DNA of 4,767 nucleotides. Source: a virus (Duplodnaviria > Heunggongvirae > Uroviricota > Caudoviricetes). This document shows, piece after piece, positions 1-3,000 of this stretch (position 1 is the stretch's first letter; every line of letters begins with the position of its first letter). Made by a program: the position numbers. The stretch lies in the IMG/VR virus record IMGVR_UViG_2529293080_000008, one strand, 5' to 3'.

Positions 1-3000
1 AACCAGCACGGCAATTTAACAGGAGTTTTTGTTTGCCAAAAATGGAAAGGAGAACCCGGTGGCGTGATTGCAGAATGTCATGTTAACTGCCTGGTTGAAA
101 CAGATGCTCAGGCTTACGCAAACGCTGAATTTATTGCTGCCTTTAATCCAAATGTTGCGCTGGCACTGCTGGATGAACGGGAAAGAAACCAGCAATACAT
201 CAAACGCCGCGACCAGGAGAACGAGGATATTGCGCTAACGGTAGGGAAGCTGCGCGTTGAGCTTGAAGCAGCAAAATCAAAACTCAACGAGCAGCGTGAG
301 TATTACGAGGGCGTTATCTCGGATGGAAGTAAGCACATAGCAGAACTGGAAAAACAATGCGCCGAATGGGAGCGAAAAGCATTAAGCAACTTTGAAGAGT
401 GTGCTGCGATGGCTGAACGTATCGAAGAGATGCAGACAAAATCTGCACCAGATTCGTTTGGCATCATCGGTGAAAATATTCGAACACAGGATAATCGAAT
501 AACGTCAGATCCTATGTTTTGTGTGTATCAAAAGCGCGAAATCGTTGTTGATGCTGATTATGACTATGACCGGATTGTCTGGGTTGATGAAGATGGCAAT
601 GAAGCCAATAAACTCCAAAGTCGTCGTCTCGAACTACTTCATGAAAACTTTCGGGAGCCACCAGAAAAATGGCGGCGCGTTGCTGTGAAAGATATTGATG
701 AATTCGTTACCTGCTGTTTCACCGAACAGGGTTGTAAAGACTACCTGGCAGTCAATGGTCACAATCTTCGCTTGCCATTTATATATGTAAAAAGCGGTTT
801 CAGGAACGCTGAATATATCGGCATAAGAAACTGGCTTGCTGGCATTCGCATCAAAGGAGAGTGATATGACCACTATAACCGATAAGAAACAGTATCCCAG
901 CGAGCAATTTCTTAATGAGCTGATCACCAACATGGAGTTTGCTGCAAGGGCACCAGTTGAAGTCGTGAGAGCGATGGCAGCAGAGCTACAGAAGCGGCGC
1001 GAAGCTGATAGTGCAGAACCAGTTGCTTATATTTTCAAACATCCGGCCGGGAAATTATTCTGGGCTTTAACGGATGAAAGCAATAAAGAGCAAGCGGACG
1101 TTATTCCTGTTTATGCTGCCGCGCCTGCGTCGGTTGTGCCGGATAATGCATCAGAGCCTCTTGCTTATGCTTACAAAGAGCTTACGCCTGAGATTATGCG
1201 CAACCATTTAGCTGTATTCGAGCGATATGGAATAGCCCCAAACGATAGCACTACCACAATTCAGGCACTGCGAATCGCGCTGGATGGTATAGAGCGGAGC
1301 GACGCCATGCTTCAGGGTAAAGGAGGGGGATATGGCTATTGCCGCAAGTTACACCATGCATCTCTACTGTGATTGTCGCCAGTGTACAAATGGTAAATAT
1401 CAAACGCCAGATTTCGGTGAGTATATCGGTACGTCATGGGCTGGCTGTGCAAAAGAGGCGCGCAAGGATGGCTGGCGAATAAACAAAGACAAAACGCGTG
1501 CTTTTGCGCCAGGGCATAAAATTTTGAGGAGCAACAAAGGAGAGTGATGTGCCTACATTATTCAGAAAAGAATATCCGCGAAAAAGTAGAGCGACAGAAT
1601 TTTTGTTTCTCATTCTGTTTATCGTGTTGATGACACCGATATCCCCGCTAATTTTTGTCTGGGCAATCGGGAAAATAATTGAGCTAGTTATTGAGTTGTA
1701 TAACGACGTGGTATGGGCGTCGTTCAACACACTGCACAATAAAATTAACCCATATAAGGAAAACTGAAATGGCAACTTTGCAGGAATTAATCGACCTGAC
1801 GCCAGAACAGGAAAAAGCGTGGAATCGTCTTGTGAAGGCTGTAAAGGATTTCAGGGCAGCCGGAGGAAAGTTTTATAGTGTCCTAGACACGCTGAGCGCA
1901 TACAACGGCGAGCACGTTGCCAGCATTGATAACGATAAGGGCTACCACACTGCAAGCGTCTATATGCCTAGCATTGATGCGCCTGGGTTAACCAGTTGGG
2001 CTGATGATTGGCACGGCATCACGCTGAAAGATGGCGTTGAAGTGGATAAGGACTAACACATGACAACGTTCACCGACAAAGAAATGATTAAAGAAATCAA
2101 AGAGCGAATCGGCAGCCTGGACGTGCGAGATAATATTGAGCGCCGTGCTTATGAAATTGCGTTGACTGCATTGACCACTGAACCATTCGCCACTATCGAC
2201 ACAGTGGGAATTGAGCTCGTTAAATATGGTTGTAACACGTTTATTTGTCCCGACAATTCGATGGAGCCGGGAAATGTACCACTATATATCGGCCTGCCAC
2301 GAATTGATCCAGCAAGCCAGACTGCCAAGCTGTCATTCCAGGAATGGTTGTCAGAACAAAAAGAAAAAATAGACGTTGATTGCGGATGTGTAAGCATCGA
2401 AACGCTTACGCACTGGATGAAATCCGCTTATGAGGCTGGTAACTCTCCGGTAACTCCGGATAGTTGGATAAGCTGTAGTGATCGAATGCCTGAAAAGGGC
2501 CAGAACGTGCTTATTTCGGTGAATTTCGATAGCTCTCTGGTTGAACCGCTAATATGCTCCGCACGCTATACCGGAAGCACCTTTCGGCGCGGAGATGCAA
2601 CGATTAAGCCGGGTAATGGTATTGAGCAAGCAACTCACTGGATGCCGCTACCAGAACCGCCGCAGGAGGTTAATTGATGGACTCCTTCGCGAAATATACG
2701 ATTATTGACTGGATAGCATTCCTTCAGGTTTTGCTCATCTGGTTTTATTTGGCTTATAGGAGTGGACAGTGGATTGTCAGTGTAGCCTGTAGCAAGGGAT
2801 GGCGTTGGTGGAACCGAAAGAATAAAAAAGCGCTGGCCTTGGATTCGTTTTACGAAGCATTCAATCTTAACAGCCTTCAGCCTGGTTCTATCATTGTAGT
2901 CACCACTCAAAGCGACATGACGATACAAATTCACAAGCCAAAGGAGGAAGGTCGTGGCTAACCTGCAACTTGCCGTTAAAGGTGAATACTTCGCAGATAG

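What the first reader, a model, noticed from the sequence alone, without database searches (positions are those of the whole stretch)
1549..1767. Small membrane protein in an AT-rich patch of a prophage early-type operon
A 72-aa single-transmembrane protein in this genomic context is a candidate for a host-targeting function, for example a Kil-like division inhibitor or a superinfection-exclusion factor. The local drop in GC and rare codons suggest a separately acquired insert. Function cannot be assigned from sequence.
Basis: inference. Interest (0 to 1): 0.45.

Follow-up and report, generated by a model that had tools for sequence, protein, structure and literature searches.

The report
DUF4014 small membrane protein, Stx prophage
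The 72-codon frame is a real, conserved and already annotated gene for a small single-pass membrane protein (family DUF4014) that many E. coli and Salmonella temperate phages carry in their early operons; nobody has tested its function, and the functional names databases give it have no experiment behind them that I could find.

Summary
Window 1549-1767 (+) is a GTG-initiated 72-codon gene with a strong ribosome-binding site and 1-nt gaps to both neighbours. It lies in the pL early operon of a 933W/PA28-type Stx2a prophage. It is a full-length member of Pfam DUF4014 (E 3.8e-25) and is annotated as such in 1024 of 5426 complete E. coli genomes. The frame is under purifying selection (dN/dS 0.27) and open in 43/43 alleles; the overlapping antisense ORF is broken in 10/43.

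It is predicted to be a bitopic inner-membrane protein, N-terminus in and C-terminus out. It has a proline-kinked transmembrane helix with one conserved face and a nearly invariant C-terminal LHNK(I/L)NPY motif.

The low GC (38%) comes from codon positions 1 and 2, that is, from hydrophobic residues. GC3 matches the neighbours and rare codons are not an outlier, so composition does not indicate foreign origin. The gene does behave as a single-gene mosaic cassette, with at least 10 upstream and 8 downstream neighbour families.

It is not related to Kil. No own promoter was detected. It occurs in phages of four virion types.

The label "acetyltransferase inhibitor" traces to an uninvestigated epsilon15 proposal. 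The PHROG label "released from the phage" is untraceable and implausible.

Most likely it binds a host membrane protein during lytic growth. The target is unknown.

The parts
1537..1542 (+). Shine-Dalgarno sequence AAGGAG, 6 nt before the GTG start. It lies inside the junction motif AAAGGAGAGTGATGTG, which also holds the stop codon of the upstream gene (TGA 1545-1547).
   Evidence: Sequence read directly. The same junction motif precedes DUF4014 in many loci that have different upstream genes.
1549..1767 (+). DUF4014 coding sequence: GTG start, 72 codons, TGA stop.
   Evidence: Pfam PF13198 E 3.8e-25, full length. RefSeq WP_001142590.1 'DUF4014 family protein' in EC4115. dN/dS 0.27, open in 43/43 alleles.
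1549..1599 (+). Residues 1-17: basic N-terminal tail (5 Lys/Arg) with the conserved motif F-R-K-x-Y-P-R-x-S-R-x-x-E. Predicted cytoplasmic.
   Evidence: Invariant Y9 P10 R11 S13 E17. The 15-residue N flank has more Lys+Arg than the C flank in 99 of 100 members.
1600..1671 (+). Residues 18-41: transmembrane helix with a conserved kink at P30-I-S-P33, ending at invariant G41.
   Evidence: Kyte-Doolittle 2.68. Hessa-scale sum -1.5. AlphaFold2 helices 14-28 and 32-66. Conservation has helical periodicity: moment 5.5 against 2.4 +/- 1.2 in shuffles, 0.5% of shuffles reach it.
1672..1764 (+). Residues 42-72: amphipathic helix followed by the most conserved motif of the family. Predicted periplasmic tail.
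   Evidence: Invariant E45 Y51 F59 L62 H63 N64 K65 N67 P68. Net charge -1.
1732..1755 (+). Residues 62-69: the LHNKINPY motif.
   Evidence: Invariant or nearly invariant in alignment A2. W/I-N-P is kept even in the most distant members, P0149, P0150 and P0156.
1332..1547 (+). Upstream neighbour: a 71-aa Cys-rich protein (PHROG 926, unknown function). It is a separate mosaic module, not a fixed partner.
1769..2056 (+). Downstream neighbour: a 95-aa protein (PHROG 2821, unknown function). It is a separate mosaic module, not a fixed partner.

Best explanation
The gene encodes a 72-residue bitopic inner-membrane protein of the DUF4014 family.

Shown by sequence and comparison:
- It is a genuine protein-coding gene under purifying selection.
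- It is tightly packed in the long same-strand gene string that runs from N through exo to xis.
- It has no promoter-like or terminator-like site of its own.

Inferred:
- It is made only when pL is derepressed and N antitermination operates, that is, after infection or prophage induction and not in the quiescent lysogen.
- It inserts with its basic N-tail in the cytoplasm and its 31-residue C-tail in the periplasm.
- It works without a phage-encoded partner by binding a host envelope or inner-membrane protein conserved in Escherichia, Shigella and Salmonella. The contact surfaces would be one conserved face of its proline-kinked transmembrane helix and the invariant LHNK(I/L)NPY tail.
- In logic it would resemble small membrane-protein modulators such as MgrB or SafA acting on PhoQ, or the epsilon15 and D3 inhibitors of O-antigen polymerase. 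These comparisons rest on my own knowledge.
- The effect is probably a non-essential remodelling of the envelope or cell cycle that favours lytic growth.

The most concrete candidate target class is membrane AT3-type acyltransferases of surface polysaccharides (WbaK, OafA, WecH-like). That idea was once attached to the epsilon15 homologue gp46. I rate it at about 0.15.
For: Real gene and family member.

Operon position and early expression:
- PA28 and EC4115 maps give the order N, cIII, kil, gam, bet, exo, Ea22, DUF4014, xis, int, all on one strand.
- No promoter-like or terminator-like site on the + strand between 1033 and 2060.
- 1-nt spacers and a strong ribosome-binding site.
- Homologues also sit in early or delayed-early strings in epsilon15, g341c, epsilon34, ES18, HK225 (nin region), D6 and three metagenomic phages.

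Membrane insertion and topology: (N flank 4.9 Lys+Arg against 1.0 in the C flank; N exceeds C in 99/100 members).

Specific interaction surfaces:
- All three segments are about equally conserved (entropy 1.06, 0.90, 0.86).
- The transmembrane conservation is helically periodic.
- The terminal motifs are invariant.

No phage partner, so a host target: at least 10 upstream and 8 downstream neighbour families, and carriage by podo-, sipho- and myovirus-type temperate phages.

Narrow host range: only 28 clusters among 1.84 billion representatives. Only E. coli and Shigella appear among 185,579 species genomes, plus one contaminant-like contig.

AT3 lead:
- g341c gene 23 is labelled by similarity to 'acetyltransferase inhibitor protein epsilon15p46'.
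- DUF4014 columns 10-39 align with epsilon15 gp28, which the record labels 'transacetylase repressor'. hhalign gives E 8.5e-5 and probability 60%. The HMM score of 10.2 bits is reached by 23 of 3000 segment-preserving shuffles.
- Small phage accessory proteins that alter O-antigen exist: the Gnarl proteins, PMC12373910.
Against: - No experiment on any DUF4014 protein was found. Full-text searches for 'DUF4014' and 'L0067' found nothing relevant.
- Topology and membrane insertion are predictions only.
- Cleavage after G41 by signal peptidase is not excluded.
- A promoter of a type the scan does not cover, or read-through expression in lysogens, is not excluded.

Against the AT3 idea specifically:
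- The epsilon15 authors' current record calls gp46 'hypothetical protein' and places the 'transacetylase repressor' label on gp28.
- The gp28 similarity is weak, and it could not be strengthened because gp28 has only four near-identical relatives.
- The gene lies in early lytic operons, not in the int-proximal conversion modules.
- It is common in phages of hosts whose O antigen is not known to be O-acetylated, such as O157, and in phages of K-12 such as HK225 (own knowledge).
Confidence: 0.45

Rival explanations
1. Late-divisome or cell-cycle inhibitor. The protein would transiently block host division or envelope growth by binding bitopic divisome proteins (FtsQ/L/B/N-type) in the membrane and periplasm. 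It would work like SPO1 gp56, not like cytoplasmic lambda Kil.
For: - It lies in the exo-xis or 'bin' part of the pL operon, a region known to affect the host cell cycle (PMC10789677 introduction).
- Its bitopic N-in/C-out architecture has a conserved periplasmic tail.
- Its independence from virion type fits a host-directed function.
Against: - No similarity to Kil or to any division-inhibitor family in Pfam, NCBIfam or PHROGs.
- The same operon already carries kil.
- There are no toxicity data.
- The phi24B exo-xis deletion data do not apply, because phi24B lacks this gene.
Confidence: 0.15
2. Superinfection-exclusion factor. The protein would block DNA entry of incoming phages at the inner membrane, working like HK97 gp15, P22 SieA or T4 Imm, either in lysogens or during lytic growth.
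For: Small inner-membrane proteins with periplasmic tails are the usual form of such factors (own knowledge).
Against: - No promoter-like site was found, and the gene lies several kb downstream of N in an operon that depends on antitermination and is controlled by the repressor. Expression in the lysogen is therefore unlikely.
- It is carried by phages with four different injection machineries: 933W and P22-like podoviruses, epsilon15, the siphoviruses ES18 and HK225, and the P1-like D6. That argues against an injection-specific block.
- No PADLOC or Sie-family hit.
- The operon already has a SieB-like gene.
Confidence: 0.1
3. Secreted periplasmic peptide. Residues 1-41 would be a cleavable Sec signal peptide, cut after W-A-I-G41, releasing a 31-residue periplasmic peptide that carries the LHNKINPY motif.
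For: - The layout is a basic n-region, then a hydrophobic h-region, then small residues at -1 (invariant G41) and mostly acceptable residues at -3 (A, I, V, L, G).
Against: - The N-tail is as conserved as the C-tail (entropy 1.06 against 0.86) and has invariant Y9 P10 R11 S13 E17. That is unusual for a signal peptide.
- The hydrophobic stretch is about 20-23 residues, the length of a signal anchor.
- G41 is not kept in the distant members.
Confidence: 0.08
4. Virion protein ejected into the host, as the PHROG and RefSeq label 'released from the phage upon host infection' implies.
For: Only the label itself: PHROG 1832 and the RefSeq phage records re-annotated from it.
Against: - The gene always lies in early operons next to recombination and Ea genes, never in the late structural cluster.
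- It is shared by phages with unrelated virions.
- The depositors' own records call it hypothetical.
- No paper supporting the phrase was found.
Confidence: 0.02
5. Not a gene. The ORF would be a by-product of an antisense gene (the 113-aa ORF at 1434-1775, minus strand) or of chance.
For: - The antisense ORF is open in 33 of 43 alleles.
- It shows a similar apparent dN/dS (0.30), as expected for that register.
Against: - The antisense frame is broken in 10/43 alleles, including all Salmonella-type ones, whereas the sense frame is open in 43/43.
- The sense frame has a conserved start position, a ribosome-binding site and a fixed length of 72 aa.
- All neighbouring genes are on the + strand.
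Confidence: 0.01

Closest known systems
Pfam PF13198 (DUF4014) / PHROG 1832: 933W L0067 (ST933Wp07), epsilon15 gp46, ES18 gp39, epsilon34 gp27, g341c gp23, HK225_057
   Same: Full-length homology. The window protein is identical to the 933W, PA28 and EC4115 proteins and about 50% identical to the Salmonella phage proteins. All are 72 aa, share the N-tail/TM/C-tail layout and sit in early operons.
   Different: Nothing differs; it is a member. One lineage feature: the O157 allele has Leu46 where most E. coli-type alleles have Pro.
epsilon15 gp28 ('serotype conversion: transacetylase repressor', 60 aa)
   Same: A small phage membrane protein. Its N-terminal P-R-K-S-x3-E-x-L-F-L-I motif and a Trp at the end of the first hydrophobic helix line up with DUF4014 columns 10-39.
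   Different: - The similarity is weak (10.2 bits; reached by about 0.8% of segment-preserving shuffles).
- gp28 appears to have two hydrophobic segments and lacks the LHNK(I/L)NPY tail.
- gp28 lies next to int, not in the early operon.
- The gp28 family is confined to epsilon15-like prophages of Salmonella.
Small membrane inhibitors of O-antigen enzymes (epsilon15 gp22, D3 Iap) and Gnarl1-3 accessory proteins
   Same: Phage proteins of 30-90 residues, non-enzymatic, that change the cell surface by acting on host enzymes. Some occur in lytic as well as temperate phages (PMC12373910).
   Different: - No sequence similarity to gp22.
- DUF4014 is absent from the Gnarl study's supplementary data.
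- No effect on LPS has been shown for DUF4014.
Lambda-type Kil (PF06301)
   Same: A small product of the pL operon, non-essential, possibly directed at the host.
   Different: Kil has no transmembrane segment and acts on FtsZ in the cytoplasm (own knowledge). There is no homology. kil is present separately in the same operon.
Lambdoid exo-xis ('bin', Ea) region accessory genes (orf60a, orf61, orf63, orf73, ea8.5, ea22)
   Same: The same genomic compartment, the same pL-driven transcription and the same mosaic, dispensable character (PMC10789677).
   Different: None of the characterised exo-xis proteins is a DUF4014 homologue. The phi24B model phage used for those studies lacks the gene.

Membership tests
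Pfam DUF4014 (PF13198) | Match to the family HMM above the gathering score, over the full length | tested here: met
   88.5 bits against a cut-off of 23.2, residues 2-72 on profile positions 2-72. RefSeq names the identical protein 'DUF4014 family protein'.
Pfam DUF4014 (PF13198) | Protein of about 70 aa with a basic N-tail, one hydrophobic helix and the conserved C-terminal HNK-x-NP motif | tested here: met
   Alignments A1 and A2.
Lambda Kil family | Sequence homology to Kil (PF06301) | tested here: not met
   No Pfam hit. hhalign against PA28 Kil gives probability 0.07%.
Lambda Kil family | Expression blocks cell division (filamentation through FtsZ) | not testable with these tools
   Needs controlled expression and microscopy.
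Superinfection-exclusion proteins (SieA, SieB, HK97 gp15, T4 Imm and similar) | Homology to a known Sie or defence family | tested here: not met
   No PADLOC, Pfam or NCBIfam match other than DUF4014.
Superinfection-exclusion proteins (SieA, SieB, HK97 gp15, T4 Imm and similar) | Expressed in the lysogen from its own or a constitutive promoter | tested here: not met
   No sigma-70-like site near the gene, 1-nt spacers, and a position deep in the pL operon. This is a consensus scan only, so it is weak negative evidence.
Superinfection-exclusion proteins (SieA, SieB, HK97 gp15, T4 Imm and similar) | Reduces plating of superinfecting phage without blocking adsorption | not testable with these tools
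   Needs plating assays.
Moron (independently transcribed insert) | Own promoter and terminator flanking the gene | tested here: not met
   No such site between 1033 and 2060 on the + strand. The gene is translationally coupled to its neighbours at both junctions.
Moron (independently transcribed insert) | Base composition distinct from the surrounding phage genes | tested here: not met
   GC3 is 0.466 against 0.38-0.55 in the neighbours. The low GC is confined to codon positions 1 and 2. Rare codons are 9.9% against 4.3-9.3%.
Phage inhibitors of O-antigen acetylation (epsilon15 'transacetylase repressor' type, AT3 inhibitors) | Homology to the epsilon15 protein that the record credits with the function (gp28) | tested here: inconclusive
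   hhalign E 8.5e-5 and probability 60% over 30 columns. The 10.2-bit score is reached by 1 of 3000 whole-sequence shuffles and 23 of 3000 segment-preserving shuffles. The gp28 family is too small for a profile test.
Phage inhibitors of O-antigen acetylation (epsilon15 'transacetylase repressor' type, AT3 inhibitors) | Located in the lysogenic-conversion module (next to int or the tailspike gene) | tested here: not met
   In epsilon15 the conversion genes gp21, gp22 and gp28 lie at 23.2-28.5 kb, whereas gp46 lies at 38.0 kb in the early-right operon.
Phage inhibitors of O-antigen acetylation (epsilon15 'transacetylase repressor' type, AT3 inhibitors) | Loss of O-acetyl groups from surface polysaccharide on expression | not testable with these tools
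   According to PMC9558356 the proposed epsilon15 inhibitors 'have not been investigated'.
Virion or ejection proteins (PHROG label 'released from the phage upon host infection') | Encoded in the late structural cluster and present in virions | tested here: not met
   The gene is always in early operons. Presence in virions cannot be tested here.

The most novel reading that the evidence does not exclude
DUF4014 proteins, perhaps together with epsilon15 gp28, would form a family of phage-encoded single-pass membrane inhibitors of host AT3-type acyltransferases (WbaK/OafA on O-antigen, WecH on enterobacterial common antigen). They would be produced early in lytic growth and strip acyl groups from surface polysaccharides. 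That would stop progeny or competing phages from adsorbing to the doomed cell and its debris. It would be a non-enzymatic seroconversion mechanism carried by about a fifth of E. coli genomes, including the Stx phages.
Probability: 0.12. Interest if true: 0.6.

Novelty: already known. Interest (0 to 1): 0.27.

Why it matters
The gene itself is not new. It is annotated as DUF4014 in 1024 of 5426 complete E. coli genomes, with up to six copies per genome, and in the classic phages 933W, VT2-Sakai, epsilon15, epsilon34 and ES18.

Two things matter.

First, no experimental test of any member was found, even though the family rides in the Shiga-toxin phages of O157:H7. Databases give it two functional names ('acetyltransferase inhibitor' and 'released from the phage upon host infection') with no experiment behind them that I could find. 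Anyone using those labels should know this.

Second, conservation points to specific binding on both sides of the inner membrane. The conserved elements are an invariant cytoplasmic YPRxSR motif, one conserved face of a kinked transmembrane helix, and an invariant periplasmic LHNK(I/L)NPY tail. That makes the protein a tractable candidate for finding a host envelope target of temperate phages.

If the old epsilon15 idea were right, it would define the first protein inhibitors of AT3 acyltransferases.

Tried and rejected
- NCBIfam and PADLOC scans of this ORF and its neighbours found nothing.
- A profile search of PDB sequences, and Foldseek of the AlphaFold2 model against PDB and BFVD, gave no meaningful match.
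- Full-text searches returned zero or irrelevant papers. The terms were 'DUF4014', 'L0067', 'released from the phage', the acetyltransferase-inhibitor phrases and g341c.
- The key epsilon15 genome paper (Kropinski 2007, PMC2698709) and the 2026 epsilon15 tailspike preprint are not held. What Kropinski et al. actually proposed for gp46 is therefore known only second-hand, through PMC9558356 and the record notes.
- I considered the phi24B exo-xis deletion work. In that study degP and htpX were lower in cells infected with the deletion mutant, which would fit loss of a membrane protein (PMC10789677). I rejected it because phi24B has no DUF4014 gene between exo and xis.
- The Gnarl accessory-gene screen (PMC12373910) does not include a DUF4014 sequence in its supplements.
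- The attempt to firm up the gp28 link with a family profile failed. gp28 has only four near-identical relatives among 5.8 billion proteins and no homologue in g341c or epsilon34.
- Foreign origin inferred from GC content is rejected.
- The antisense ORF as the real gene is rejected.
- I looked for a conserved partner gene by clustering immediate neighbours in 90 loci. There is none.
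Full report
**1. What is in the sequence**

The window is a stretch of a 933W/PA28-type Stx2a prophage.
- It matches phage PA28 over positions 1-4709 at 99.9%.
- Positions 1300-2100 are 100% identical to E. coli O157:H7 EC4115, TW14359 and many other genomes.
- On the PA28 and EC4115 maps the window lies on the pL strand. It is downstream of N, a SieB-like gene, cIII, kil, gam, bet, exo, a DksA-like gene and ead/Ea22. It is upstream of ant, a methyltransferase gene, xis and int.

"Prophage early-type operon" is therefore correct. This is the exo-xis or Ea compartment of lambdoid phages.

The ORF at 1549-1767 (+) starts with GTG, has 72 codons and ends with TGA. An AAGGAG ribosome-binding site lies 6 nt upstream. 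The upstream gene stops 1 nt before the start and the next gene starts 1 nt after the stop. No promoter-like or terminator-like site lies on the + strand between 1033 and 2060.

**2. Is it a gene?**

Yes.
- It is a full-length match to Pfam DUF4014 (88.5 bits, cut-off 23.2, E 3.8e-25) and to PHROG 1832 (E 1.5e-45).
- RefSeq annotates the identical protein (WP_001142590.1) as a DUF4014 family protein.
- The ORF alone is found in 1024 of 5426 complete E. coli genomes. There are 1735 places, up to six per genome, 30 of them on plasmids, and all 30 listed rows carry that name.
- It is in 127 phage records and 339 IMG/VR contigs.

I collected 43 distinct full-length alleles from 90 loci.
- The annotated frame is open in all 43.
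- The start is at the same position in all (28 ATG, 15 GTG).
- Most variable sites are at third codon positions (37, 29 and 50 variable sites at positions 1, 2 and 3).
- Mean dN/dS is 0.27. Between the E. coli-type and Salmonella-type groups dS is saturated (2.4) while dN is 0.37.

The 113-codon antisense ORF (1434-1775, minus strand) shows a similar apparent ratio, as expected for that register. It is interrupted in 10 of 43 alleles, including all five Salmonella-type ones.

**3. The AT-rich patch**

The gene is 38.4% GC against 46.6% for the window. The deficit lies entirely in codon positions 1 (0.384) and 2 (0.301), which is the signature of a Phe/Leu/Ile-rich protein. GC3 is 0.466, within the neighbours' range of 0.38-0.55. 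Seven of 71 codons are rare (AGA x2, ATA x2, CTA x2, CGA). That is 9.9%, against 4.3-9.3% in the nine neighbouring genes (the codon table is from my own knowledge). Composition therefore gives no evidence of separate origin.

Independent evidence does show that the gene is a mobile unit. In 90 loci its immediate upstream gene belongs to at least 10 unrelated families and its downstream gene to at least 8. It is a single-gene mosaic cassette exchanged at gene boundaries, not a moron with its own signals.

The boundary carries a recurrent junction motif, AAAGGAGAGTGAT(A/G)TG. The motif contains the last codons of the upstream gene (...K-G-E-stop), the ribosome-binding site and the start codon. 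It occurs twice in the window (854 and 1537) and precedes DUF4014 next to different upstream genes.

**4. The protein**

The sequence is MPTLFRKEYPRKSRATE / FLFLILFIVLMTPISPLIFVWAIG / KIIELVIELYNDVVWASFNTLHNKINPYKEN.
- The best 19-residue Kyte-Doolittle window scores 2.68, at residues 19-37.
- A summed Hessa-scale insertion energy is -1.5 for residues 18-40 despite two prolines. The median over 100 family members is -2.8 (scale values from my own knowledge).
- The N-tail has 5 Lys/Arg. The 15-residue N flank has more Lys+Arg than the C flank in 99 of 100 members (mean 4.9 against 1.0). The positive-inside rule therefore predicts N-in/C-out throughout the family.
- AlphaFold2 with a 21-sequence alignment gives helix 14-28, a break at P30-P33 and helix 32-66. 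Mean pLDDT is 80.7, above 90 in the central 30 residues, and pTM is 0.37.

Invariant residues in the alignment are Y9 P10 R11 S13 E17 F20 F24 P30 G41 E45 Y51 F59 L62 H63 N64 K65 N67 P68. The three segments are about equally conserved. Conservation within the transmembrane helix has helical periodicity that only 0.5% of shuffles reach, which points to one packing face.

The family is small.
- An exhaustive profile search of 1.84 billion representatives finds 28 clusters.
- Among one genome for each of 185,579 species, only E. coli and Shigella carry it, apart from a 427-bp "Xanthomonas" contig at 98% identity that looks like contamination.
- The most distant members (P0149, P0150, P0156) keep the basic N-tail, the P-x-x-P kink, E-x-F-x-x-W-Y and W-N-P. 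They also lie among strings of small early genes.

**5. What the database names are worth**

(a) "O-polysaccharide / sugar acetyltransferase inhibitor" (g341c gp23, HK225_057, MG40 and some NCBI proteins).
- The g341c note shows the name was copied from "acetyltransferase inhibitor protein epsilon15p46", an earlier label of the epsilon15 RefSeq entry.
- The authors' current record calls gp46 "hypothetical protein". It assigns serotype conversion to gp21 (polymerase), gp22 (alpha-polymerase inhibitor) and gp28 ("transacetylase repressor"), all in the tailspike-int region and far from gp46.
- The name is therefore an untested proposal spread by similarity.

(b) "Released from the phage upon host infection".
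- This phrase comes from PHROG 1832 and from RefSeq or Pharokka re-annotations.
- I could not trace any evidence for it.
- It conflicts with the gene's constant early-operon position and with its presence in phages with unrelated virions: 933W-like and P22-like podoviruses, epsilon15, the siphoviruses ES18 and HK225, and the P1-like D6.

**6. A weak lead**

I compared the DUF4014 profile with three small proteins.
- Kil: no similarity.
- epsilon15 gp22: no similarity.
- epsilon15 gp28: aligned over 30 columns (PRKSFIPEPLFLIF...W against PRKSRATEFLFLIL...W). hhalign gives E 8.5e-5 and probability 60%.

An HMM score of 10.2 bits is reached by 1 of 3000 whole-sequence shuffles and by 23 of 3000 shuffles that preserve the tail/TM/tail composition. 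This may be why gp46 was once proposed as a second acetylation inhibitor.

The similarity is confined to the juxtamembrane motif and the first helix. gp28 lacks the C-terminal motif. The link cannot be strengthened, because gp28 has only four near-identical relatives and no homologue in g341c or epsilon34. I treat it as a lead, not as homology.

**7. How it most likely works**

Shown:
- A conserved, translated-looking gene that is packed at 1-nt spacing into a long same-strand early gene string.
- Membrane-protein features.
- No fixed phage partner.
- Carriage that is independent of virion type.
- A host range restricted to Escherichia, Shigella and Salmonella.

Inferred:
- It is made only when pL is active.
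- It inserts N-in/C-out.
- It binds a host inner-membrane or envelope protein through its conserved helix face and periplasmic tail, giving a non-essential benefit during lytic growth.

I give this general model 0.45. Within it or beside it I rate:
- AT3 or surface-polysaccharide target: about 0.12-0.15.
- Late-divisome or cell-cycle target: about 0.15.
- Injection-blocking exclusion: about 0.10.
- Cleaved periplasmic peptide: about 0.08.
- Virion protein: about 0.02.

Kil is cytoplasmic, and kil is already present in the operon. Functional convergence is not excluded.

Small accessory proteins that remodel O-antigen without being enzymes have recently been shown (Gnarl1-3, PMC12373910). DUF4014 is not among them.

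**8. Verdict**

The feature is ordinary in the sense that it is a known, widely annotated DUF family in a well-known phage compartment, so I rate it "already known" with modest interest (0.27).

Its remaining value is twofold. It is a very common, strongly constrained Stx-phage membrane protein for which I found no tested function. And both functional names attached to it in databases lack traceable experimental support.

Noticed in passing
window 3186-3275 (+), within the 355-bp gap 2962-3316 between the DUF4752 gene and ant: Rfam sRNA-Xcc1 (RF02221) matches its full length at 65.4 bits (gathering score 53, E 1e-10), just upstream of the AntA/P22-type antirepressor gene. A promoter-like site (TTGACA, 18-nt spacer, CATACT) lies at 3065-3094. 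This may be a regulatory RNA or leader of the ant module.
   Followed up: no
window 4664 and 4710-4767: Relative to PA28, the MT-A70 DNA methyltransferase gene (start 4377) has an extra G at 4664 that truncates it to 101 aa. From about 4710 the sequence (TGAACCGCCCCGG...) is the end of an IS1203/IS629 (IS3-family) element, as in strain 2017C-4109. In this prophage the methylase gene is therefore both frameshifted and interrupted by an IS element.
   Followed up: partly
window 854-869 and 1537-1551; also upstream of DUF4014 in loci L007, L008, L011 and many IMG/VR loci: The junction motif AAAGGAGAGTGAT(A/G)TG recurs at several gene boundaries. It holds the C-terminal K-G-E codons and stop of one gene plus the ribosome-binding site and start of the next. 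Unrelated upstream genes all end in ...KGE. It probably serves both translational coupling and as a short homology patch for mosaic exchange. A second junction type (GCCCGAAAGGGCGGTAAGAA|ATG, with a small hairpin) occurs in about 35 loci.
   Followed up: partly
L007 3001-3456 (phage D6, NC_050154.1): In the P1-like plasmid prophage D6 the DUF4014 reading frame lacks its stop codon and continues in frame into the downstream ORF, giving 152 aa (...NPYKETDMATLTKEE...). This is either a real fusion or a sequencing frameshift. If real, it places a soluble domain on the side predicted to be periplasmic.
   Followed up: no
L005 28344-28526 (-) (epsilon15 gp28) compared with window 1576-1665: The epsilon15 'transacetylase repressor' gp28 shares the P-R-K-S-x3-E-x-L-F-L-I juxtamembrane motif with DUF4014. 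The similarity is weak (reached by about 0.8% of segment-preserving shuffles).
   Followed up: partly
L014 (NZ_JPLE01000252.1, Xanthomonas pisi, 427-bp contig) and PP818812.1 (Actinobacillus phage vB_Apl-pPE4): Near-identical copies of this enterobacterial phage gene (98% and 90%) appear in records assigned to unrelated hosts. The 427-bp contig looks like assembly contamination. The Actinobacillus phage record is odd for its stated host.
   Followed up: no
window 1684-1686 (codon 46): The O157/933W/PA28 allele has Leu46 (CTA). Nearly all other E. coli-type alleles have Pro here (K-I-I-E-P-V-I-E-L-Y) and the Salmonella-type alleles have Lys. It is a lineage-specific change just after the membrane exit.
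   Followed up: no
window 1332-1372: The 168-aa ORF (866-1372) and the 71-aa Cys-rich ORF (1332-1547) overlap by 41 nt in different frames. RefSeq flags the 168-aa gene as an incomplete pseudogene in EC4115 (L099 5567-6019).
   Followed up: no
window 2677-2961 (DUF4752): Two genes downstream, the DUF4752 protein also begins with a hydrophobic, transmembrane-like segment (IIDWIAFLQVLLIWFYLAY). This stretch of the operon therefore seems to encode at least two small membrane proteins.
   Followed up: no
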